Virus genome (UHGV): UHGV-0274280
DNA from: a virus
Strand: one strand, 5' to 3'
Length of the DNA: 15,876 nucleotides
Of the stretch, positions 1 through 14,725 are shown in pieces. Position numbers and translations under genes: made by a program. The notes under the pieces are model-generated. The model was not told the DNA's origin. It worked only from the letters and a program-made list of their open reading frames with translations, and did not search any database. Position 1 is the first letter of the stretch. The number at the start of each line of letters is the position of its first letter.

Positions 1-143
1 GTATATACAAACCCACAAACCAAATTTTCGTTCATAGCATATATTAAGTTTGTAAGATTGATTCCGTTATTTTCAATCGAACTGACGATTTTATGTTCAT
101 GCAAAGACATTTTATCAGATTTATTTTTAATTAAATTATTCAT
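1..143 (-). CDS. hypothetical protein, 5' part only (gene continues beyond window start)
   Basis: ATG at 143 with AAGGAG 6 nt upstream; frame stays open to the window edge (MNNLIKNKSDKMSLHEHKIVSSIENNGINLTNLIYAMNENLVCGFVY...). The ATG lies 8 nt inside the upstream recombinase gene, suggesting translational coupling. Not in the ORF track because under 60 aa within the window. AT-rich. Confidence 0.35.
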   Translation of the reverse strand, partial: MNNLIKNKSDKMSLHEHKIVSSIENNGINLTNLIYAMNENLVCGFVY

Positions 144-1338
144 CAAATTCTCCTTTGAATAGTTGCTCTTGTTGTTCAAGTGCAGTTTTTTTCGATAGCT
201 CATAAATATGCCTGCGATTATAAATCATTGAAGTTTCTGAACCCGGTCGCCATCCCATGAGATAAGAACGGATTTGTTGCTCTTTTTCATCGGATATGTC
301 CTGATTCTTGTCTATTGCTTTCGAAAACTCATAATTCCATGTATGTCTGAGTTTGTGACCTGTCAATCCCCCTAGAAGTGAGGAGGATTGACGAACAACA
401 CTCACCACTTTGTGATATGAAGAAAATGAAATAGGTTGCCCTTGAGTTTTTCCTTCCTTATAAGTAATAAACAGGAAATCATGTTTGTTAGAATTTTTTA
501 TGTTTCTTCGATCATTCAGAATATAATCTGAAATTTCAAACATGAGCTTTTTATCAGCAATTAATTTCCTCTCACAAGTTTTAACTAAAGGCTGATACAC
601 TCGCGGATCTGTTTTATCATTTGCTCTTCTTCTTATTGCAATTGTCGATTCTGCAAAATCTATATCACCCATTCGCAGATTCAAAAGTTCACCTGCTCTC
701 AGGCCAAAGCAGTGTAATAGCAGGAATATTAGATTGTTTCTTTTTTGCACTTTTTCTGAAAATGGATTTAATTTGCTACCCGGTGCAAGAATGCTAAACA
801 AAGAATCCAATTGTTCATTATTTAAACTTTTTTCTTTATCCATAGTATATTTATCATTATTTCTCGGTTTCTTTCGTTTTATGTTGTTAATGAAATCTAA
901 AATATATTTGAGAGTATCCTTCTGTCCTGTATGAGAAAGATGTATTTTGCACAGCCATTCCAGATAGTTAGCTATGGTTGTTATCCGAAAGTACTTAGTT
1001 GGTTTTTTGACATTTGAACTTCTAAAATTATCATTCTCGCCATCTCGAAAATTGAATGAAGTGAATTCGATCAAATCTTCAATTTCATGAGGAGCCAGAA
1101 ATATCCTTTTCTGAATTCTTTCATCAATATTGATATTTTTTCTCATAAAGAATCGATATAACAATGAAATGCTCCCAGCGATAACCTTCATTGTTGATAT
1201 AGACTCTGACCGATTCCTGACTTGTGTTGTTATATACAAGTTTGGATAATACAATGGCTCACCAGTATCTTTATTTACAACATGACAATATCTCTCACCA
1301 TTTTCGAACATAAAAGAATCCACACAAATACTGCACAT
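136..1338 (-). CDS. tyrosine-type site-specific recombinase / integrase-family protein (400 aa)
   Basis: Catalytic-domain signatures of the tyrosine recombinase family: box I-like LLLHCFGLRAGELLNLRMGDID (Arg), HKLRHTW (H-x-x-R), C-terminal SMIYNRRHIYE (candidate Tyr). ATG at 1338 with AGGAGG 5 nt upstream. Very AT-rich, unlike the other two integrases. Confidence 0.65.
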   Translation of the reverse strand: MCSICVDSFMFENGERYCHVVNKDTGEPLYYPNLYITTQVRNRSESISTMKVIAGSISLLYRFFMRKNINIDERIQKRIFLAPHEIEDLIEFTSFNFRDGENDNFRSSNVKKPTKYFRITTIANYLEWLCKIHLSHTGQKDTLKYILDFINNIKRKKPRNNDKYTMDKEKSLNNEQLDSLFSILAPGSKLNPFSEKVQKRNNLIFLLLHCFGLRAGELLNLRMGDIDFAESTIAIRRRANDKTDPRVYQPLVKTCERKLIADKKLMFEISDYILNDRRNIKNSNKHDFLFITYKEGKTQGQPISFSSYHKVVSVVRQSSSLLGGLTGHKLRHTWNYEFSKAIDKNQDISDEKEQQIRSYLMGWRPGSETSMIYNRRHIYELSKKTALEQQEQLFKGEFDE

Positions 1339-1446
1339 ATTTTCCTCCTAAACTTTACAAAAAGTATAATTCCAATATATTAATAATAAGCATTTCGTAG
1401 ATTTACAAATTTATTTGGATCGATTAAGATATTTATTTAAATTAAA

Positions 1447-1539
1447 ACAGTGAGATAGACGATTATTCTTGTCAAATTATCATCTGGTAGATCTAGTTAT
1501 TATTATGTACACCTAATACTTTGAAAACTATCTCACTGT
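1447..1539. repeat. perfect 12-bp inverted repeat pair (ACAGTGAGATAG at 1447-1458, CTATCTCACTGT at 1528-1539) flanking a 69-bp spacer
   Basis: Read directly from the sequence; lies in the 5' intergenic region of the recombinase gene. Confidence 0.7.
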
Positions 1540-1620
1540 CTTGCTAATAAACGGCAACCAAAATAATGTAAGTTATTTTGTAAGGTTTTAAGCCAAAATA
1601 TGGGGCCAAACTTTACATTT

Positions 1621-1935
1621 TTACAAAAGAGTTTTCAGCCCAATCTGATATCGAATTATCCGTTTCGATAAATTTCTAATTTCATCTGGGCATTTAATTA
1701 GCGAGAACCATGTTTCATACACATAAAACTGTTCGAAAATATTAAGCTCAGAGATCGAATCTAACGGTTCTCTTAGATTCCCCACTAAATACTGGCTTAA
1801 CCAGTAAACAATCTTTCTGTTAAATTCATTATCAGGTAAATCGTAAATCGCTCCGGGTTCGAAGATTTTACAGAAAAGTTCCTGGCCCAGATTACACATA
1901 TGGTTATCTTCACTCACAAATTCTTCGATATTCAT
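1621..1935 (-). CDS. hypothetical protein (104 aa from ATG at 1935; the ORF track starts 5 codons earlier at a TTG)
   Basis: ATG at 1935 with GGGAGG 6 nt upstream; only 20 nt after the alpA stop, so probably co-transcribed. AT-rich, no recognisable motif. Confidence 0.45.
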   Translation of the reverse strand: MNIEEFVSEDNHMCNLGQELFCKIFEPGAIYDLPDNEFNRKIVYWLSQYLVGNLREPLDSISELNIFEQFYVYETWFSLIKCPDEIRNLSKRIIRYQIGLKTLL

Positions 1936-1955
1936 AACATGCCTCCCCAAATTAA

Positions 1956-2171
1956 CTAAGCAACATTATTTCGACTTGTTTCGATAACAGACTGAATCCA
2001 GGCATCAATCTCACTTTCGACGAAAGCTACTGCACGAGTTCCAATTTTGACAGGGGCAGGAAACTTACCATCTTTGATCAGACGATAGACCCAGGCTTTG
2101 CCGAAACCAGTTCGTTTCAAGACTTCGGGTAAACGAATTAAGCTTTGATTGGTTGTATCGGTTGTATTCAT
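1956..2171 (-). CDS. alpA: AlpA-family phage transcriptional regulator / excisionase-like HTH protein (71 aa)
   Basis: LIRLPEVLKRTGFGKAWVYRLIKDGKFPAPVKIGTRAVAFVESEIDAWI follows the AlpA pattern (RLPEV..TG.....Y......FP.P.K.G.R.....E...W). Strong RBS GGAGGAGG 7 nt upstream of the ATG at 2171. Confidence 0.75.
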   Translation of the reverse strand: MNTTDTTNQSLIRLPEVLKRTGFGKAWVYRLIKDGKFPAPVKIGTRAVAFVESEIDAWIQSVIETSRNNVA

Positions 2172-2337
2172 TTGGCTACCTCCTCCGCTTCCGTTACGAA
2201 GATATTAGCCACACAGATTCGTATCTATGAAGGGAATGCTGATAACTGAAAAGTTAGATGAGGGAATAATGAAAGGAAATTCCGGGGAAGAAAAATATTT
2301 ACGCCCTCCCCTTGACAATTAACATGATGATTTACAA

Positions 2338-3147
2338 CTAGAAAGATCCGAGTTCCGAAATCGGTATGTTGCGGAGATGGCTGTTTTTGCTGATAAAATA
2401 TTCCAGACTACGGGTTGTTTCGCCATTCAATGACTTCTCTGCAACAGGCCTATCTGTATCTTTAATGTGATCTTCTCCTCTGATCTCATTTGTAAAGTCG
2501 GGATACAAGACACGAGACAAGACCATATTTGAGATTTTTACTTTTTTAAACTTTGCCCAAATCAATAAATCCATCATTGGGATAATATTGTAATCGACAA
2601 GTTTTCTTATTTTTGCAAGTCCAATTTTTTCTGTTTTCACTGGCTCAATTTCATATTCTTTTCTAAGATCTGGTAGCATCGTTTGTAAGGCTGTTATAAT
2701 TTCTTCATCGCTGGACATTCCTAAATCAAATGAAACATACATCTTGCTGCTATTTTGGTTTAGAAAAAAGTCCCTCATAGTTTTTGTAATTGGTTTCTTT
2801 TTCAACTCTTTTTTGAAATCGCCATTTTCTTCAAAAAAATCCATGCTAAACATTATTAACTTGTTCTCTAATTTTTTTATATCACCAAAGCTAACTTGCG
2901 CAACATGCCTTTGGCCCTTGCCAAAATGACCATGATTATTATCTTGTCTGCTTAAAATAGGATTACCTTCAAGGATAGACCTTAAATTTTGATTATCATC
3001 TTCCCATCCAAAATTTACACTGTCGAAAATCGCTTCTCTAAAGGCAAGCTCAGTATGCAGTTCTTTGATTGTAAGTGATTTTAACTGCTCATAGTTTTCG
3101 AGACTAAACCAGCTTTTTAATTCTTCATAAGGGCTTACTACTTTCAT
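2338..3147 (-). CDS. hypothetical protein, orphan cargo gene (269 aa from first ATG at 3147; 276 aa if the TTG at 3168 is used)
   Basis: Long ORF in AT-rich DNA between the P4-type integrase and alpA; GGAGG about 5 nt upstream of the ATG at 3147. No family recognised by eye. Confidence 0.5.
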   Translation of the reverse strand: MKVVSPYEELKSWFSLENYEQLKSLTIKELHTELAFREAIFDSVNFGWEDDNQNLRSILEGNPILSRQDNNHGHFGKGQRHVAQVSFGDIKKLENKLIMFSMDFFEENGDFKKELKKKPITKTMRDFFLNQNSSKMYVSFDLGMSSDEEIITALQTMLPDLRKEYEIEPVKTEKIGLAKIRKLVDYNIIPMMDLLIWAKFKKVKISNMVLSRVLYPDFTNEIRGEDHIKDTDRPVAEKSLNGETTRSLEYFISKNSHLRNIPISELGSF

Positions 3148-3204
3148 TAATCCCTCCACTGTATTCAAAGCTTGAATGAGTTAACACTGCTTATTTGAAT
3201 TAAT

Positions 3205-3232
3205 TCTCCCTTAACAAGATTGATAAGGGAGA
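3205..3232 (-). terminator. putative hairpin downstream of the P4-type integrase gene (8-bp stem TCTCCCTT / AAGGGAGA, 12-nt loop)
   Basis: Inverted repeat 27 bp past the int stop, followed on the minus strand by A/U-rich but not U-run sequence, so a weak intrinsic terminator at best. Confidence 0.3.
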
Positions 3233-3258
3233 GCGATTGATCATCTACTTATTCATAG

Positions 3259-4509
3259 TTAACTCTTTTTAAAATCAAATGGTGAAACTTGTCGTATTCT
3301 AAGGAGGTCAAGGTAATCGGCCCACCACTGCAACATAAGCTTTCTCTCATCAAGGTGCTCTGCTTTATGTATGTACGCAGCACGAACTGAGTTCCGCTCC
3401 TGATGGCTCATTTGCCGTTCAACAGCATCTTTCGACCACAAACCGGATTCAATTAAAGCACTACAAGCCATAGCTCTGAATCCATGTCCACAGACCTCCA
3501 CGGTTGTGTCATAGCCCATAGACCTCAAAGCCTTGTTTACCGTATTTTCACTCATGGGCTTTCTGAAATCATGGTCGCCAATGAACACGAGTTCATGGTC
3601 ACCGCTGATCTCTTTAATTTCCGTCAACACAGCCAATGCCTGACAACTCAAAGGAACAAGGTGTGGAGTTCGCATTTTCGAACCACGATGCGAATGTTTC
3701 ACTCCGGGTAATGGCTCTCGCTCTGCAGGAATAGTCCACATGGCATTGTCGAAATCTATCTCTGACCAACGAGCAAACCTGAGTTCACTCGAACGAATAA
3801 AAATGAGCAATGTAAGCTTTACGGCTAACTTCGTGAGCTTTCTACCTTTGAATATTTCAATTCGCTCTAGGAGTTCAGAGAAGCGATCAAACGGTAATGC
3901 CGGTCGGTGGGTTCTTTTTGCTACAGCAATAGCCCCAGACATTTCTTGGGCCGGATTATAGTCAATTAAGCCATTCTGGACGGCATATCGCAAAATTGCT
4001 GTGGTTCGTTGTTGTAGACGGGCTGCTACTTCTAACCGTCCAGAAGCTTCAACAACCTTGATCGGAACGAGTAGATCCTTGGTTTTAAGCTCGGCTATTT
4101 TTCTCTTTCCTATGAAAGAGAAAAGGTTATCTTCAAGGCTCTTTAAAACCCTCTCACTATGGGAATCTGACCATTTCCTTTTACAGGCAGTATGCCAGTC
4201 CCTTGCAACAGCTTCGAATGTCAGGGCTTCGCTTTGCTCGATTTTGTCTGCTTTTTTCTTTTCTGAGGGGTCGAGACCAAGCGATACTAATTTTTTGGCT
4301 TCATCCCGTTTCTTGCGGGCTTCACTAAGAGAGACCATTGGATAAACACCCAATGCTAAAACTTTCTGTTTGCCATCGAAACGGTATTGGAGTCGCCAGT
4401 ACTTCGAGCCGTTAGGATTGATCAGCAGGTGCATACCCTGCCCATCGGTGAGTTTGAAGGGTTTGTCGGAGGGCTTGGTAGTCCTAACTTTGATATCGGT
4501 GAGAGCCAT
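3259..4509 (-). CDS. int: P4 / CP4-57-type tyrosine integrase (416 aa)
   Basis: N-terminal arm-binding region (KPSDKPFKLTDGQGMHLLINPNGSKYWRLQYRFDGKQKVLALGVYPMVSLSEARKKRDEAKKLVSLGLDP) typical of P4-like integrases; catalytic region with HGFRAMACSAL and ...RAAYIH. ATG at 4509 with GGAGG 9 nt upstream. Confidence 0.85.
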   Translation of the reverse strand: MALTDIKVRTTKPSDKPFKLTDGQGMHLLINPNGSKYWRLQYRFDGKQKVLALGVYPMVSLSEARKKRDEAKKLVSLGLDPSEKKKADKIEQSEALTFEAVARDWHTACKRKWSDSHSERVLKSLEDNLFSFIGKRKIAELKTKDLLVPIKVVEASGRLEVAARLQQRTTAILRYAVQNGLIDYNPAQEMSGAIAVAKRTHRPALPFDRFSELLERIEIFKGRKLTKLAVKLTLLIFIRSSELRFARWSEIDFDNAMWTIPAEREPLPGVKHSHRGSKMRTPHLVPLSCQALAVLTEIKEISGDHELVFIGDHDFRKPMSENTVNKALRSMGYDTTVEVCGHGFRAMACSALIESGLWSKDAVERQMSHQERNSVRAAYIHKAEHLDERKLMLQWWADYLDLLRIRQVSPFDFKKS

Positions 4510-4601
4510 CAGTTGATACCTCCAGTGTTGGTACCAAAATCAATCGAACCGGGAATACCATCAGTTATACCATCATCAGTTGGTATATGTTCAAGGAATT
4601 G

Positions 4602-4681
4602 AGTAGACGTAGACAGACTAAGAAAAGCCAGAAACCTGCTTAACTTACTGTTTTTATGGACTAAAGTAGACGTTAGTAGAC
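4602..4681 (+). repeat. direct repeats AGTAGACGT (4602-4610, 4665-4673) and AGTAGAC (4675-4681); putative arm-type integrase binding sites
   Basis: Three copies of the 7-mer core, two spaced 10 bp apart, between the integrase start and the tRNA-end fragment, where att arm sites are expected. Confidence 0.4.
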
Positions 4682-4698
4682 TTGAAAAAAGCTTTGTA

Positions 4699-4729
4699 TG
4701 GTGCCGAAGGCCGGACTCGAACCGGCACG
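4699..4729 (-). other. 31-nt tRNA 3'-end fragment (T-arm, acceptor 3' strand, CCA); leuX / tRNA-Leu-like; putative att core or direct repeat
   Basis: Reverse complement reads CGTGCCGGTTCGAGTCCGGCCTTCGGCACCA: T-stem GCCGG/CCGGC, T-loop TTCGAGT, CCA end. It matches my recollection of the last 31 nt of E. coli leuX. The upstream sequence does not supply the complementary acceptor 5' strand (GCCGAAG), so this is not a complete tRNA gene. Confidence 0.6.
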
Positions 4730-4862: not shown

Positions 4863-6071
4863 ATGAGTTTCAAGAGAGATCGTTATCTAGTTTTAGATCC
4901 CTGCGGGAATTACCTCGTGCGGATAGCTATCCCCAGCTATATGCGTCACCTGTTCCAAGGGAAACGCTACTTTATGAAAAGCACAGGGACACGAGACATA
5001 CGGCAAGCGCGATTGTTTCGCGATGCTATTGCTCTGGAATGGACTCGCTTACGGAATCTGCTAAAGCCACAAGGCGGCTCATCTGTAGACCAAATCATTG
5101 ATGAGCTACGCCGTGTCAGTGTGTACGCCAAGGAAGCCCCCGCATCGTTTGGTGCATCGATTCAGGCTTGCCCTTCCTTGCTAAAAATGCGTGATTTGTA
5201 CCTGCTTCAATACAGCGAGAAGCGAAAGCTAACCACGCTATCCAAGACCAATAAAGCCGTAGAGGTGCTGTTAACCCACCTGAAAAAGAAAGATGTTCAG
5301 TTGCGAGATATTAACCGAACCATAGTTACAGGCTGGTTAGATAAACTCAAAACTGAGCGAGCGCCCCAAACCATCCAGAACTATATCAGTGCACTGGCGC
5401 AGATATGGGATTTGGCACGCAATCGCTATCACGATGCGCCACAGGATAACCCTTGGCGTGGTCATGCACTCGAAGCAAAAAGCAGCAAGGTCAGCTATGA
5501 AGTCTTCGCACCGGGAGAGCTGGCAAAGGTCTATACCTTGCTTGATGACGAGATGAAGGCGGTAACGGCTATTGGTGCTTACAGCGGTATGCGGATCAAT
5601 GAAATATGTACGCTGCGTGAGAGCAGTATTAAAACCATCGAGGGCGTTTTGTGCTTTGAGATCACCGAGGGGAAGACCAAGAGCGCGGCACGAATCGTCC
5701 CAGTACACAGCAAGCTAATCCCCCTCGTGAAATCATTGCTCAAAACCACACATAGCGGTTTTCTGTTCTATCACGCGTCAATTACAGACCGGGCGGATGG
5801 GAAGCGCTCAACGTGGCATACGCAGCAGTTCACACGGGCAAAGCGTAAAGCTCTTGGCGAACTTGCCGCAGAGAGAAAAGTGTTTCACTCACTCCGCCAT
5901 GCGTTTGTGCAACAACTCGACCGTGCTCAAGTGCCAGAAGATAGGATCGCTCTGCTTGTAGGCCACGAACGAGGTAGCACTGAGAGTTTTAAGACATATT
6001 CAAAAAACGCAGCATCCCCTTTAGAGATGCGCCGGTATATTGAATTAATAGATTATGAATTAATTAAATGA
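4863..6071 (+). CDS. int: tyrosine-type phage integrase (402 aa), different family from the P4-type one
   Basis: N-terminal YLVRIAIPSYMRHLFQGKRYFMKSTGTRDIRQARL pattern common to phage/island integrases; C-terminal HSLRHAF (H-x-x-R) and LLVGHERGSTESFKTYSK (candidate Tyr). Transcribed away from the tRNA fragment. Confidence 0.8.
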   Translation: MSFKRDRYLVLDPCGNYLVRIAIPSYMRHLFQGKRYFMKSTGTRDIRQARLFRDAIALEWTRLRNLLKPQGGSSVDQIIDELRRVSVYAKEAPASFGASIQACPSLLKMRDLYLLQYSEKRKLTTLSKTNKAVEVLLTHLKKKDVQLRDINRTIVTGWLDKLKTERAPQTIQNYISALAQIWDLARNRYHDAPQDNPWRGHALEAKSSKVSYEVFAPGELAKVYTLLDDEMKAVTAIGAYSGMRINEICTLRESSIKTIEGVLCFEITEGKTKSAARIVPVHSKLIPLVKSLLKTTHSGFLFYHASITDRADGKRSTWHTQQFTRAKRKALGELAAERKVFHSLRHAFVQQLDRAQVPEDRIALLVGHERGSTESFKTYSKNAASPLEMRRYIELIDYELIK

Positions 6072-6896: not shown

Positions 6897-7325
6897 TTAT
6901 GCTGGATAAATAATACCCAGCCCCTTGTAGTGGCGGCGGTAGGCTGGTAGCATGAAATTCATGCTACCGGGTGAGAGTCCACACACCCGCCCTACATAAT
7001 AGCCACCCTCAGCAGCATTAGCAGAGCGATGCACCACAGCACGCACGCGCCCGGTTCGGTGGCAGTGATCCAGCACGGCAGACGCAAGGCGCAGCGGCTT
7101 ACCTGTCACCGCACAGCGTCGGTATTGATAATTCCACAGGAAGACACGGACAGCGGCCACATCAGCGCGGCGCAACTCCAGCCGCCCGGAACCATTCAAC
7201 AGGAAGCGATAAACATCTTCGAATGCAGCAGCGTTTGTAATCCGTTCCGCCAGTGGCATATTGCCAAGGTGTTCCAGATAGCCCCGCATAGCTTTTCTTA
7301 ATAGCTGGTCTGTCCGTGTAACCAT
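6897..7325 (-). CDS. endonuclease VII-like (T4 gp49-type Holliday-junction resolvase family) protein, divergent (142 aa)
   Basis: CAVTGKPL...LDHCHRTGRVRAVVHRSANAAEG resembles the Endo VII core (C..C...LDHDH..G.VRGLLC..CN.AEG) but the second Cys pair is replaced by His/Ala. Confidence 0.55.
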   Translation of the reverse strand: MVTRTDQLLRKAMRGYLEHLGNMPLAERITNAAAFEDVYRFLLNGSGRLELRRADVAAVRVFLWNYQYRRCAVTGKPLRLASAVLDHCHRTGRVRAVVHRSANAAEGGYYVGRVCGLSPGSMNFMLPAYRRHYKGLGIIYPA

Positions 7326-8024: not shown

Positions 8025-8534
8025 TTAGGCAGCCTGCAATAAATCGGCTGGCGTTGAGGGATGGCATCTGGCTTTAGCTTTTAGATAGGCAGCACGCGCC
8101 GCCACTTCGGTAGTAAATAAGCCAAGGTGACGGAGTACACCATCAACGCGTATGTAAGCCTCCCATTTTCTACAGCCCTTATTCCAGCTATACCCCCTTG
8201 CCTTGCGTCGGTTCTGGTCGTTTTCCCGCTGCGTAACCAAGCGCAGATTGCATAGGCGATTGTCGTCACGGATACCGTTGATGTGATCGATCTGCTTACC
8301 ATGAGGAATAGCGCCATGCGCAAGAATCCACGCCACGCGATGGGCTTTTAGCTGGTACTGCTTGCCATCAAGTCGCAGGGCAACTTGACGATAGCCATCA
8401 GCTCGCCGGGTGGAGTCAGCATAGGAGCCAGCCTTAACCCGGCGTCGGTTAGCTTTATGGTGCAGGCGGCCTGTCACCGGGTCATACAGGAAAAGGGAAC
8501 ACAGCAGCTCAGGGGCGTAAGCATCATTAACCAT
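8025..8534 (-). CDS. HNH endonuclease with AP2-like DNA-binding domain (169 aa)
   Basis: HRVAWILAHGAIPHGKQIDHINGIRDDNRLCNLRLVTQRENDQN is a typical HNH_3-type motif, followed by GYSWNKGCRKWEAYIRVDGVLRHLGLFTTEVAARAAY (AP2-like). GGAGG 9 nt upstream of the ATG. Confidence 0.75.
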   Translation of the reverse strand: MVNDAYAPELLCSLFLYDPVTGRLHHKANRRRVKAGSYADSTRRADGYRQVALRLDGKQYQLKAHRVAWILAHGAIPHGKQIDHINGIRDDNRLCNLRLVTQRENDQNRRKARGYSWNKGCRKWEAYIRVDGVLRHLGLFTTEVAARAAYLKAKARCHPSTPADLLQAA

Positions 8535-12880: not shown

Positions 12881-14725
12881 TCAGAGGTATTTAGCGATGT
12901 ACTGCCAGTTGCAGTTTTCAGGGCGGTAGAAGTAAGCAAGCTCATCAGGCGCAACATCCAGCGCCAGCGATGACCACAGCAGAAAAGCGCGGGCAGGTTC
13001 CCCATCGCGCCCGGCTCGTCCAATCATCTGAACGAGATCAGGCAAATCATCGGGGACGTATGTCACGACAACGTTACGGATATCAGGAACATCAGCACCC
13101 AGCCCGAAGGCTTTAGTAGCAATAAGAATCGCGCCCGGCGTAGAGGCAAACCACTCAGCGTTTGCGTGGCGTTCCTCGTTGCTCAGGTGCATCGTCTTCG
13201 AGTGATATGGCCGCGCCCGGTCGCCCAAGAGTTTCAGGTACGCCCGCAACGTTTTAAGGTCATTGACGAGAATAAGCGTCTTCTCTTCTTTCGGCAGAGC
13301 CTCGACCAGACCAATAGCCGCTCGGAAACGTTCGCGGCACTGTCTGACTGGCGTCAACTGGATATTCTCGCGAGCAACATCAGCGCGGAATGTTACGTAA
13401 TCGCCACGGCAGCCAAGCGACTCCATTAAACTGCGCTCATTTTCGCGTAGCAGCGTAGCCGTAAACACGCAGCGTTGAGCCGAAGGAAAGGCATTCTGTA
13501 GTGTGTGCTGCATTGCGTCGTAAGCTGGGCGGAAATCCCAGTCTTTGACCGTGTGTGCCTCATCGATAATAAAACGATCAACGCCATAAGCCATCAGCGC
13601 CGCGAGAACCTGACTCGACGGAACCAGATGTTCAGGCGAAACGACTGCAACCCGGAACGCCCCGGCAGCCAGCCCCGCCAGTTGTTGCGCATTGCGGTGC
13701 CTCGGCAGCTTGTCACCAAATGCCACAGCGTGAACGCCAGCCTCCCGCAACTGGCGGAGAATCTGACGCTTAAGGGTATTAGTAGGAACAACGATAACAG
13801 ACAGGCCAACGCCAGCGCGGGATTCATAAATCAATGGGTAAGTGAAGGCAGCGCTTTTGCCATACCCAGTAGGCAGAACGGCAAGCACATCACTGCCACG
13901 GGAAAAGATCGCATCAGCAACAGACAATTGCCCCGGCCTCCACTCCAGCCCATCAGGTGGCAGCAGGCTAACGCGTGCGTTTCGGTCACAGCGAGCCAGG
14001 GGGCGGAACTCATACGGCGTAGTATTCAGTGGCGGCACAGACGGCGAAGCAGCCAAGCCGTTCGGGTCACAATGATGATTTGTATTATTAAATCTATCTT
14101 CGGTAGGCTTCGACTCTCCACACCAAAATTGACGAAACTCCCCTGAGTCTCCGTAGCGTTTGAAATCTGCGTTACGCATCGCTTCCAGTTTACCCATGCC
14201 CCTGTTAATTCGGCGCATGGTCTTCTCATCGCAAATGAGAAACTCGCGGCAGGCTTTGAGAAAAGCATTCTGTCCGGTTGTTGATTCCGGCACGGCGTGC
14301 TCGCGCGGTTTCAATGCGGCATCGTCTACGCGAACGCCGGGGAAATCTGGCGGCAGTGGTTCAACATAACGAGCAGGCTTTTTATTTAGCCATTGCTCAA
14401 TCTCAGCGCGTCGGCAGTGAATCGCGTCGCCGGGCTGGATGACTTGCCGCAACCCAGCGTCAGAGCGCTGTTTTTGTTTCTTCGGTTGAACACCGTGCAG
14501 CGTTCGCCACTCCCGCAAGGTCATCGCGGAGCCATCTGCATTGTAATAAAACTCTTCGGTCTTTGTGTTGTATGCCGCCTTAACGGGCTTACGCTTTACG
14601 GGGCATATCTTGGAACGTCGAATAACAACCCCGTCAGCGATCATTTGCTGTACATCTGCGTCCGCAGTATTGAGCGGGTCAGCGTCGGCAGCCTGCGCAA
14701 GCAGGCGGCGTAGGTTTGTTGGCAT
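12881..14725 (-). CDS. RecQ-family DEAH-box superfamily-2 DNA helicase with ~270-aa N-terminal domain of unknown function (614 aa)
   Basis: Walker A LAVLPTGYGKSAAF, motif II FIIDEAHTVKDWDFRPAY (RecQ signature DEAH...W..DFRP.Y), motif III VFTATL, C-terminal ILIATKAFGLGADVPDIRNVVVTYVPDDLPDLVQMIGRAGRDG. GGAG 8 nt upstream of the ATG. First gene of the operon. Confidence 0.8.
   Translation of the reverse strand: MPTNLRRLLAQAADADPLNTADADVQQMIADGVVIRRSKICPVKRKPVKAAYNTKTEEFYYNADGSAMTLREWRTLHGVQPKKQKQRSDAGLRQVIQPGDAIHCRRAEIEQWLNKKPARYVEPLPPDFPGVRVDDAALKPREHAVPESTTGQNAFLKACREFLICDEKTMRRINRGMGKLEAMRNADFKRYGDSGEFRQFWCGESKPTEDRFNNTNHHCDPNGLAASPSVPPLNTTPYEFRPLARCDRNARVSLLPPDGLEWRPGQLSVADAIFSRGSDVLAVLPTGYGKSAAFTYPLIYESRAGVGLSVIVVPTNTLKRQILRQLREAGVHAVAFGDKLPRHRNAQQLAGLAAGAFRVAVVSPEHLVPSSQVLAALMAYGVDRFIIDEAHTVKDWDFRPAYDAMQHTLQNAFPSAQRCVFTATLLRENERSLMESLGCRGDYVTFRADVARENIQLTPVRQCRERFRAAIGLVEALPKEEKTLILVNDLKTLRAYLKLLGDRARPYHSKTMHLSNEERHANAEWFASTPGAILIATKAFGLGADVPDIRNVVVTYVPDDLPDLVQMIGRAGRDGEPARAFLLWSSLALDVAPDELAYFYRPENCNWQYIAKYL

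What the first reader, a model, noticed from the sequence alone, without database searches (positions are those of the whole stretch)
1447..1539. Perfect 12-bp inverted repeats bracketing 69 bp in the recombinase upstream region
ACAGTGAGATAG and its exact reverse complement flank a 69-bp AT-rich spacer about 110-200 bp upstream of the recombinase start. This could be a paired operator for autoregulation, a recombination site pair, or a small invertible segment; 69 bp is short for an invertase substrate, so the operator reading is more conservative.
Basis: seen in the sequence. Interest (0 to 1): 0.5.

Follow-up and report, generated by a model that had tools for sequence, protein, structure and literature searches.

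The report
Joined ends of a GInt element
The two 12-base inverted repeats are real, but the important feature is between them: the recombination site of a known kind of mobile island (a GInt), with its two ends joined, so this is an ordinary part of a known system seen in a little-described state.

Summary
The repeat is confirmed: ACAGTGAGATAG at 1447-1458 and its exact reverse complement at 1528-1539, 69 bp apart. It is only weakly improbable alone (7% of window shuffles).

The downstream "recombinase" is GinA, the first gene of a ginABCD operon. This operon defines GInt mobile islands, and close E. coli homologues are listed in a published GInt survey.

The 69-bp "spacer" holds the conserved element:
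- a 19-bp right-end site (1503-1521);
- a 6-bp crossover hexamer (1497-1502);
- a 20-bp left-end site (1477-1496).

Across 66 natural copies the flanks are almost invariant, but the hexamer takes 22 forms.

Two plasmid GInts inserted at ssb gave the end motifs; one has boundaries checked against 87 empty sites. By these motifs the window carries a right end fused to a left end. This is the circular-junction form (attI). It lies inside an island that a P4-type integrase inserted at tRNA-Leu.

- They are better conserved than the adjoining DNA, so they are probably protein-binding sites.
- They show no compensatory changes.
- They are absent from a sister clade with the same core.
- They never flank an inverted spacer.

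Verdict: known kind, new member, modest interest.

The parts
1447..1458 (.). Inverted-repeat arm in the left-end (ginA-proximal, P') arm of the element, 18 bp from the left-end core site
   Evidence: Only 0.3% non-majority bases per column in 55 distinct copies, against 4% for the adjoining linker and 10% beyond it. Absent from L008/L009/L097.
1528..1539 (.). Inverted-repeat arm in the right-end (P) arm of the element, 6 bp from the right-end core site
   Evidence: 1.0% non-majority bases per column. Also present as CAGTGAGATGG in the gin-less remnant L058.
1477..1496 (-). Left-end core site (C): gene strand CTAGATCTACCAGATGATAA; contains the 8-bp palindrome TAGATCTA (1488-1495)
   Evidence: Invariant across clades with 77-99% GinA identity. 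Aligns with the validated left ends TAGAGTTAACTTGTGAG (L123) and TGAGATTGACCTTAGAAC (L124), and with the ssb-type left ends TAGGATATACCTTAGAC.
1497..1502 (-). 6-bp crossover (overlap) hexamer: gene strand TAATAA, plus strand TTATTA
   Evidence: 22 different hexamers in 66 copies; 18% non-majority bases against 0-1.3% in the flanking core sites. Homology to the gin-less locus L058 starts at 1497. GInts are reported to cut with a 6-nt stagger (PMC5385486).
1503..1521 (-). Right-end core site (C'): gene strand AAGTATTAGGTGTACATAA
   Evidence: Invariant in the alignments. Aligns with the right ends of integrated plasmid GInts: AAGTATCAGGTTATGTGAA (L123, boundary validated by 87 empty sites) and CACTATCAGGTAATTAGAA (L124).
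1567..1584 (+). Two TGTAAG motifs (1567-1572, 1579-1584) in the right-end arm, inverted relative to ginA
   Evidence: Invariant TTACA columns in alignments A2 and A4. An equivalent TTTACA lies about 70 nt inside the L123 right end. The motifs are mutated in the gin-less remnant L058.
1608..1617 (-). TGTAAAGTTT motif just after the hyp109 stop codon (direct orientation)
   Evidence: The identical 10-mer occurs again at 1350-1359 (on L001, offset 12000). Invariant in A2 and A4.
1350..1359 (-). TGTAAAGTTT motif immediately upstream of the ginA ribosome-binding site
1380..1408 (-). Promoter-like site for ginA read by eye (TTGTAA at 1408-1403, 17 nt, TATTAA at 1385-1380); the -35 overlaps a TTTGTAAAT motif
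   Evidence: Read from the sequence and invariant in A2. It was not reported by the consensus scan, because the last base of the -10 is A. Inference only.
136..1338 (-). ginA: 400-aa tyrosine recombinase
   Evidence: Pfam Phage_integrase, E = 3.6e-13. R214, H328, R331 and Y373 are invariant in 21 homologues. It is the first gene of a conserved four-gene operon in all 56 related loci.
1..143 (-). Start of ginB (second tyrosine recombinase); runs off the left end of the window
   Evidence: Sequence. The translation matches the N-terminus of the 434-aa L001 protein. It overlaps the end of ginA by 8 bp.
1621..1950 (-). 109-aa hypothetical protein, last gene before the right end
1956..2171 (-). AlpA-family helix-turn-helix protein (excisionase/regulator family)
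   Evidence: Pfam Phage_AlpA, E = 2.2e-19. It precedes the gin operon in most enterobacterial loci.
2338..3168 (-). DUF6387 protein
   Evidence: Pfam E = 2.3e-78.
3259..4509 (-). P4-type integrase (Arm-DNA-bind_3, Phage_int_M, Phage_integrase domains)
   Evidence: It lies next to tRNA-Leu in E. coli.
4699..4729 (+). 31-nt copy of the 3' end of tRNA-Leu: the att repeat that bounds the P4-integrase island

Best explanation
The region upstream of the recombinase is the attachment site of a GInt (genomic island with three integrases) in its joined-end form, called attI.

Reading along the gene strand, the order is:
- the right-end arm of the element, carrying TTACA motifs and the repeat arm at 1528-1539;
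- the 19-bp right-end core site C' (1503-1521);
- a 6-bp crossover hexamer (1497-1502);
- the 20-bp left-end core site C (1477-1496);
- the left-end arm, carrying the repeat arm at 1447-1458, TTGTAAA motifs and the ginA promoter;
- ginA.

The GinABCD proteins cut and rejoin DNA at the hexamer. The whole element lies inside a roughly 21-kb island that a separate P4-type integrase inserted at tRNA-Leu, so the gin site is left unrecombined.

They most likely bind a Gin protein (or another element-encoded protein) that helps to assemble or orient the recombination complex. The ginA-proximal arm may also influence the ginA promoter.

Shown here: the anatomy, the conservation pattern, the hexamer hypervariability, the homology to validated GInt ends, and the location inside the tRNA-Leu island. 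Inferred: protein binding to the arms and what that binding does.
For: (1) GInt identity.
- The four-gene operon (400, 434, 624 and 128 aa) is syntenic in all 56 related loci.
- The 624-aa and 128-aa proteins of the E. coli homologue (GinA 98% identical) are listed as a ginC-ginD block in Additional file 10 of PMC10214605.
- Non-enterobacterial relatives sit exactly at the end of ssb, the published GInt target (PMC5385486).

(2) Core site.
- A block of about 45 bp inside the 'spacer' is invariant even in L008/L009, where GinA is 77% identical and the repeat arms are absent.
- The 6 nt in its centre take 22 forms in 66 copies: 18% non-majority bases against 0-1.3% in the flanking sites.
- This matches the 6-nt staggered cuts and the att sequence variants reported for GInts.

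(3) Homology breakpoints fall at the hexamer.
- L058 matches the window only from 1497 rightwards.
- L061 matches L058 only on the other side.
- L009 and L014 share the right-end side but carry different gin subfamilies.

(4) Joined ends.
- The plasmid GInt L123 has the left end CCATTT-TAGAGTTAACTTGTGAG and the right end AAGTATCAGGTTATGTGAA-CCGTTC. A reconstructed empty site matches 87 plasmids over 100% of its length, the best at 99.5% identity.
- L124 has the right end CACTATCAGGTAATTAGAA-CCATTC.
- In the window, AAGTATTAGGTGTACATAA (right-end type) directly abuts hexamer + CTAGATCTACC (left-end type).
- All 66 copies of the left-end site found in genomes and metagenomes are joined to the same kind of right-end arm.

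(5) Location.
- The site lies inside an island bounded by tRNA-Leu att repeats next to the P4-type integrase.

(6) The arms.
- They vary at 0.3-1.0% of bases per column, against 4-5% in the adjoining linkers and 7-10% in the outer flanks.
- The two arms of the element share further patches of inverted similarity (CCAAAATAA-TGTAAG and CCAAATAAATTTGTAAA; read).
- L123 likewise has the 10-nt inverted repeat TGTAAAGAAT in both ends.
Against: - No experiment here shows that any protein binds the arms.
- The arms are clade-specific: L008, L009 and L097 have identical core sites but no such repeat. The arms therefore cannot be essential to the shared recombination chemistry.
- The sequences are related by descent, so the lower variation in the arms is not a formal test of selection.
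- The left-end core site was the search pattern for 60 of the copies, so its invariance is partly built in.
- No Gin-integrated copy (separate attL and attR) of this clade was found, so activity of this particular clade rests on hexamer diversity alone.
- The gin-less loci L058 and L061 could also be read as empty target sites, which would make the window site an attL.
Confidence: 0.7

Rival explanations
1. The site is an attL, not a joined-end site. On this reading a GInt inserted into a conserved target downstream of alpA-hyp109 in a P4-type island. The arm at 1528-1539 would then be target DNA and the arm at 1447-1458 would be GInt DNA, so the repeat would be a by-product of insertion.
For: Homology breakpoints fall at the hexamer in comparisons with the gin-less islands L058 and L061. 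The 1528-1539 arm is present in L058, which has no gin operon. The flank and the gin operon assort independently in L009 versus L014.
Against: The DNA to the left of the hexamer carries the right-end motif found at two integrated plasmid GInts, one boundary-validated and one located by motif. It also carries the TTACA motifs seen inside those right ends. True attL sites at ssb have no such motif. No second core copy was found in about 62 kb beyond the operon in E. coli 300444. The whole gin module lies inside tRNA-Leu att repeats. L058 looks like a decayed right end: its C' is degenerate and its TGTAA motifs are mutated.
Confidence: 0.13
2. The two arms form a paired operator. A regulator such as AlpA, GinD or another protein would bind both half-sites and loop 81 bp of DNA to control the ginA promoter, independently of recombination.
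For: Both arms are conserved as sequence. The 1447-1458 arm ends about 38 bp upstream of the -35 of a promoter-like site. An AlpA-family gene lies directly upstream. The GInt literature reports a promoter inside the element upstream of ginA.
Against: Neither arm has internal dyad symmetry. The centre-to-centre distance of 81 bp is 7.7 helical turns, so the arms are not in phase. A sister clade with the same promoter region and core lacks the arms. The arms belong to opposite ends of a mobile element, so they would be far apart in any Gin-integrated state.
Confidence: 0.1
3. The arms pair in the transcript, or as a cruciform, to form a long-range stem. The stem would be followed by UUUUAAUUU and would act as a terminator or insulator against read-through from alpA-hyp109 into ginA. 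Other subfamilies have hairpin-plus-T-run elements in the same place.
For: The stem is in the predicted minimum-energy fold (RNA z = -2.6, DNA z = -2.95). Other GInt subfamilies carry palindromes followed by T runs next to the left-end site, and ssb-type elements carry GC-rich terminators there.
Against: There are no compensatory changes in 12 pairs across 55 distinct sequences, and every variant breaks a pair. A 69-nt loop is far outside the range of intrinsic terminators. The terminator scan found none. There is no Rfam match.
Confidence: 0.04
4. The 69-bp segment is an invertible switch flipped by the adjacent recombinase.
For: Inverted repeats lie next to a tyrosine recombinase gene.
Against: All 66 copies have the same orientation. 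An inverted-spacer query finds at best 81.6% identity in 58 E. coli genomes. The spacer is the attachment core of a GInt. The segment is very short for an inversion substrate.
Confidence: 0.01
5. The repeat is a chance match in AT-rich intergenic DNA.
For: 7% of window shuffles contain such a repeat, and there is no covariation.
Against: About 1% of shuffles of the intergenic region contain one. Both arms are kept in over 50 distinct copies with less variation than their surroundings.
Confidence: 0.02

Closest known systems
GInt (genomic island with three integrases; Bardaji et al. 2017, PMC5385486), specifically its attI site
   Same: It has a ginABCD-type operon at one end of the element and a promoter region upstream of ginA. 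The crossover is 6 nt, with sequence variants generated at the attachment site. The DNA at the other end is AT-rich. Relatives insert at the end of ssb. Close homologues of its GinC and GinD are listed in the published GInt survey.
   Different: Published GInts are described as integrated through gin, with separate attL and attR sites. Here the ends are joined, and the element is inserted in the chromosome through a second, P4-type integrase at tRNA-Leu. Bardaji et al. state that they found no common feature in the 3' end. Here a 19-bp right-end motif, TGTAA-type motifs and a clade-specific 11-12-bp subterminal inverted repeat are seen.
[quoted passage not shown] 2023, PMC10214605)
   Same: Both have imperfect terminal inverted repeats (motifs C and C', 13-19 bp) separated by a 6-bp spacer in the joined form. 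In SEs the spacer records earlier target sites ('fingerprint/footprint'). Both carry a four-gene recombination operon next to the left end.
   Different: The gene order and protein clusters differ: SE is intA-tfp-intB-srap, GInt is ginA-ginB-ginC-ginD. The paper reports that the two groups are separable by protein clustering, and it lists this operon's E. coli homologues among the GInt blocks. Strand bias was not testable here.
Phage lambda-type attP (core flanked by arm-type sites)
   Same: A short core with an overlap region is flanked on both sides by repeated motifs within about 150 bp that probably bind proteins. An excisionase-family gene (alpA) lies nearby.
   Different: The recombinases are a hetero-multimeric Gin set, not a single Int. 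The binding of the arm motifs is not established. The site is not currently used for the integration seen in this genome.
Tn554 (tnpA, tnpB, tnpC)
   Same: It uses two tyrosine recombinases plus a small protein, inserts site-specifically with a 6-bp footprint, and has imperfect terminal inverted repeats.
   Different: It has no third recombinase-fold protein and occurs in Firmicutes. No sequence similarity was tested here.
Invertible DNA switches such as fimS
   Same: Short inverted repeats lie next to a tyrosine recombinase gene.
   Different: There are no orientation variants. The repeats here lie in the two ends of a mobile element, and the crossover is between them, not within them.

Membership tests
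GInt | ginABCD operon: two catalytic tyrosine recombinases, a third recombinase-fold protein and a small fourth protein, co-directional and overlapping | tested here: met
   ginA is complete and ginB starts in the window. The full operon is present in the near-identical locus L002 (GinA 99%) and in all 56 related loci. The 624-aa protein contains a recombinase-like HQPRHLLNT...Y segment (read). ginC and ginD themselves lie outside the window.
GInt | Homology of GinC/GinD to the reference GInt proteins | tested here: met
   WP_021518351.1 and WP_001062149.1 (L001, GinA 98% identical to the window's) appear in the ginC-ginD synteny list of PMC10214605, Additional file 10. This rests on that paper's PSI-BLAST and was not recomputed here.
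GInt | Integrated site-specifically and flanked by short imperfect direct repeats (attL and attR) | tested here: not met
   In this copy the two ends are joined, and no second core copy was found nearby in E. coli. Plasmid relatives do meet this feature: L123 was validated against 87 empty sites, and L124 by motif. This copy is thus a GInt in the attI configuration rather than a Gin-integrated GInt.
GInt | 6-nt staggered crossover that generates sequence variants at the att site | tested here: met
   22 hexamers in 66 copies, between invariant flanks. This is comparative evidence only, not a biochemical test.
GInt | Excision or circularisation and integration dependent on all four gin genes | not testable with these tools
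   Requires PCR or genetic assays.
SE (strand-biased circularizing integrative element) | An intA-tfp-intB-srap operon whose Tfp and Srap fall in the SE protein clusters | not tested
   No direct comparison with SE proteins was run. The published survey places the E. coli homologues in the GInt list, and reports 0 SE blocks and 1 GInt block for NC_017633 and NC_017656.
Invertible promoter/segment switch | Both orientations of the segment between the inverted repeats occur in natural populations | tested here: not met
   0 of 66 copies are inverted. The best match to an inverted query is 81.6% in 58 E. coli genomes. Within-strain deep sequencing was not available.
Structured RNA or intrinsic terminator | A stem supported by compensatory changes; a short loop; a T run | tested here: not met
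   0 compensatory changes in 12 pairs across 55 sequences. The loop is 69 nt. There was no terminator hit and no Rfam hit.
gamma-mobile-trio (GmtX/GmtY/GmtZ, NCBIfam) | GmtY equivalog score of at least 340 bits | tested here: not met
   GinA scores 37 bits against NF040693.

The most novel reading that the evidence does not exclude
Enterobacterial GInts of this type may be dual-integrase mobilizable islands. On this reading, a GInt circle that also carries a P4-type integrase, alpA and a relaxase normally sits at a tRNA gene through the P4-type integrase. Its own gin attachment site stays closed and poised. The diverse 6-bp hexamers would then record past rounds of Gin-mediated insertion and excision elsewhere. 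The clade-specific 11-12-bp subterminal repeats would be specificity sites that let one Gin set (GinB is the most diverged protein between the two clades that share a core, at 56% against 69-78% for the others) recognise only its own element's ends.
Probability: 0.4. Interest if true: 0.6.

Novelty: new member of a known kind. Interest (0 to 1): 0.4.

Why it matters
GInts and the related SEs are recently described and little-studied mobile elements. They carry virulence, resistance and anti-phage genes. The original GInt paper reported that it could find no common feature in the right end.

This locus and its relatives contribute four things:
- a concrete map of the attachment site (right-end site, 6-bp crossover, left-end site, repeated TGTAA-type motifs and subterminal inverted repeats);
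- a natural series of more than 60 copies in which only the crossover hexamer varies;
- evidence that in Enterobacterales the element usually sits with its ends joined, inside tRNA-linked islands that have a second integrase;
- a short DNA substrate (about 1420-1560) for binding and recombination assays, and a way to annotate these islands correctly.

The repeat is part of a mobile-element end structure, not a new switch.

Tried and rejected
(1) First working model: the site is an attL and L058/L061 are empty target sites.
- I looked for the matching right end in E. coli 300444. About 62 kb beyond the operon held no second copy of either core half or of the repeat arm.
- I abandoned this model once two plasmid GInts, one with validated ends, showed that the DNA left of the hexamer is itself a right end. 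It is kept as a rival.

(2) Resemblance of GGTGTACATAA to the XerC arm of dif (recalled from memory).
- Not pursued. The GInt end motifs explain the sequence better.

(3) Long-range RNA or cruciform stem.
- It folds but has no covariation.

(4) Inversion.
- Tested with an inverted query and by inspecting 66 copies. None was found.

(5) Scan of viral contigs for the left-end site.
- 0 hits.

(6) Rfam.
- Nothing.

(7) Pfam and NCBIfam on the 109-aa, 624-aa and 128-aa proteins.
- No significant family.

(8) The promoter scan did not report the promoter I read by eye upstream of ginA, so that promoter remains an inference.

(9) I did not run structure prediction, the large representative-protein search, or a covariance model. 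None would bear on a protein-binding DNA repeat.

Full report
**Observation**

The window has ACAGTGAGATAG at 1447-1458 and its exact reverse complement at 1528-1539, separated by 69 bases. The repeat lies 109-201 bp upstream of the start (1338, minus strand) of a 400-aa tyrosine recombinase. It is the only perfect 12-bp inverted repeat with a spacer of 200 bp or less in the window.

A repeat of this kind with a spacer of 100 bp or less turns up in 7% of dinucleotide shuffles of the window and about 1% of shuffles of the 282-bp intergenic region.

**Context**

On the minus strand the gene order is:
- a P4-type integrase (4509-3259);
- a DUF6387 protein (3168-2338);
- an AlpA-family protein (2171-1956);
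- a 109-aa hypothetical protein (1950-1621);
- the intergenic region with the repeat;
- the 400-aa recombinase (1338-136);
- the start of a second recombinase (from 143), which runs off the window.

In E. coli 300444 (95.7% identical over bases 1-3300) the recombinase heads an overlapping operon of 400, 434, 624 and 128 aa, and the integrase sits next to tRNA-Leu. The same four-gene operon is present in all 56 related loci recovered from species-representative genomes.

This is the ginABCD organisation that defines GInt islands (PMC5385486). The E. coli 624-aa and 128-aa proteins are listed as a ginC-ginD block in the survey of Idola et al. (PMC10214605, Additional file 10). Relatives outside the Enterobacterales sit exactly at the end of ssb (...GATGATATTCCGTTCTAG), which is the published GInt target.

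**What the "spacer" contains**

I aligned the upstream regions of relatives. The arms are kept only in the close clade (GinA at least 88% identical). L008 and L009 (77-78%) lack them.

A block of about 45 bp inside the spacer is invariant in all of them. On the gene strand it reads AAGTATTAGGTGTACATAA-nnnnnn-CTAGATCTACCAGATGATAA.

A metagenome scan for the last 20 bases gave 60 more copies. Over 66 copies, 55 of them distinct, the 6 nt in the middle (window 1497-1502) take 22 different forms. The share of non-majority bases per column is:
- hexamer: 18%;
- core sites on either side: 0-1.3%;
- the two repeat arms: 0.3-1.0%;
- linkers between arms and core: 4-5%;
- outer flanks: 7-10%.

A hypervariable hexamer between invariant sites is what the GInt and SE literature describes for the crossover. 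That literature reports 6-nt staggered cuts, attachment-site variants produced by excision and integration, and a 6-bp spacer between motifs C and C' that carries footprints of former targets.

Homology breakpoints fall at the same place:
- The gin-less E. coli locus L058 matches the window only from 1497 rightwards.
- L061 matches L058 only on the other side.
- L009 and L014 share everything up to the hexamer but carry different gin subfamilies beyond it.

**Joined ends rather than an insertion junction**

I first read the site as an attL, but no matching right end could be found in E. coli 300444. Two plasmid GInts then settled the orientation of the motifs.

- In the IncN plasmid NZ_CP027137.1 a GInt (GinA 42.6% identical) carrying Avs4 and AbiGi is inserted at the end of ssb. 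Its left junction is GATGATATT-CCATTT-TAGAGTTAACTTGTGAG. Its right junction is AAGTATCAGGTTATGTGAA-CCGTTC-TGAAGATC.
- A reconstructed empty site matches 87 plasmids over its full length in one piece, the best at 99.5% identity. The boundaries are therefore sound.
- An IncC plasmid GInt has the right end CACTATCAGGTAATTAGAA-CCATTC. This end was located by motif and was not checked against empty sites.

The window's AAGTATTAGGTGTACATAA is thus a right-end site of the same length and position relative to the hexamer. CTAGATCTACC... is a left-end site. The TTACA motifs 45-65 bp from the right-end site mirror the TTTACA found about 70 bp inside the IncN right end. True ssb attL sites lack all of these features on their outer side.

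The window therefore carries a right end fused to a left end, which is the circular-junction (attI) configuration. All 66 copies of the left-end site are in this state.

The element is nevertheless chromosomal. It lies inside an island bounded by tRNA-Leu att repeats:
- A 31-nt tRNA-Leu 3' fragment sits at window 4699-4729.
- In E. coli 300444 a 20-nt repeat recurs about 21.5 kb from the tRNA, with the gin module and a relaxase gene between them.

The simplest reading is an element with two recombination modules, integrated here by the P4-type integrase.

One arm (1528-1539) lies 6 bp outside the right-end site. The other (1447-1458) lies 18 bp inside the left-end site. They are subterminal inverted repeats of the element, and they are close together only because the ends are joined.

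- Both are conserved about as well as the core sites and better than their surroundings.
- The two ends share further patches of inverted similarity (read).
- The IncN GInt also has a 10-nt inverted repeat, TGTAAAGAAT, in both ends.
- Protein binding is the most likely function, but that is an inference.

Points that limit the claim:
- There are no compensatory changes in the 12 pairs across 55 distinct sequences, so nothing supports a selected hairpin or cruciform.
- The stem does fold in silico, with a z-score of about -2.6 to -3.
- The arms are absent from a sister clade with identical core sites, so they are not needed for the shared chemistry. Between those clades GinB is the most diverged protein (56-57% identity, against 69-78% for the other three). 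That makes GinB a candidate binder, which is speculative.
- An operator role at the ginA promoter is not excluded.

**Rejected readings**

- Inversion of the 69-bp segment is not seen in any of the 66 copies. An inverted-spacer query finds at best 81.6% identity in 58 E. coli genomes.
- There is no Rfam family and no terminator-like site.

**Comparison and novelty**

The element is a GInt by operon content and by published listing. Its attachment-site logic matches GInt attI and SE attS.

I could not find the following described in the literature searched:
- the joined-end state inside a tRNA-linked island with a second integrase;
- the consistent position directly downstream of alpA in Enterobacterales;
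- the right-end motif;
- the clade-specific subterminal repeat.

I rate it a new member of a known kind, of modest interest. The more novel reading, a dual-integrase mobilizable island with a poised gin site, is still open.

Noticed in passing
window 4510-4729 and 4863-6071: A 31-nt copy of the tRNA-Leu 3' end (4699-4729) ends the P4-integrase island. Immediately beyond it is a second integrase (DUF6538 + Phage_integrase), followed by 55% GC phage-like genes: endonuclease VII at 6897-7325, HNH at 8025-8534 and a DEAD-box helicase at 12881-14725. Two elements appear to sit in tandem at one tRNA-Leu att site, and the tRNA gene itself is not in the window.
   Followed up: partly
window 1350-1359, 1401-1410, 1567-1572, 1579-1584, 1608-1617: TGTAAA-type motifs (TGTAAAGTTT occurs twice) recur on both sides of the core and are invariant across subfamilies. 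The same motif lies 5-15 nt inside the left end of ssb-type and plasmid GInts, and it is mutated in the gin-less remnant L058. They are probably arm-type binding sites common to the whole family.
   Followed up: partly
L060 5830-5870 (E. coli O55:H7 RM12579): A different gin family occupies the same place after alpA-hyp109 at tRNA-Leu. Homology to the window type stops at the hyp109 stop codon. At the position equivalent to the core it has a perfect 30-bp palindrome, TTATAATATCCCTCTAGAGGGATATTATAA, possibly a fully symmetrical joined-end site.
   Followed up: partly
L058 6990-7040 and L061 5790-5830 (E. coli strains 54 and E24377A): These are gin-less islands. A degenerate right-end site (GGTGGGTTGGGTGTGCATAA + TATTAA) abuts three small unrelated genes where ginABCD would be. 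They look like decayed remnants or recombinants formed at the hexamer.
   Followed up: partly
L123 19293-25416 (IncN plasmid NZ_CP027137.1); L124 (IncC plasmid CP008790.1): GInts inserted at the end of plasmid ssb genes on conjugative resistance-type plasmids. The IncN copy carries anti-phage cargo (Avs4 and an AbiGi-family protein).
   Followed up: partly
L001 1-7000 and L059 1-5700 (E. coli 300444 island): The roughly 21.5-kb island that holds the gin module also carries a relaxase and a run of defence-type genes: reverse transcriptase, phosphoribosyltransferase-like, caspase-family, TIR, nucleotide cyclase and RES-domain proteins.
   Followed up: no
window 1499-1527 (minus strand) and 1456-1506 (plus strand): Promoter-like sites overlap the core. 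TTTTCA-17-AATAAT on the gene strand spans the right-end site and the hexamer. Two plus-strand sites point outward toward hyp109. Their number is no higher than in shuffles, so their significance is unknown.
   Followed up: no
L013-L015, L030-type and L039-type loci, about -150 to -110 from ginA: Other subfamilies have perfect palindromes directly next to the left-end site: CACCTTATATAAGGTG; TTTCTTTCACGTGAAAGAAA followed by a T run; and TTTATTTGACGTCAAATAAA followed by a T run. ssb-type elements have GC-rich terminator hairpins there.
   Followed up: no
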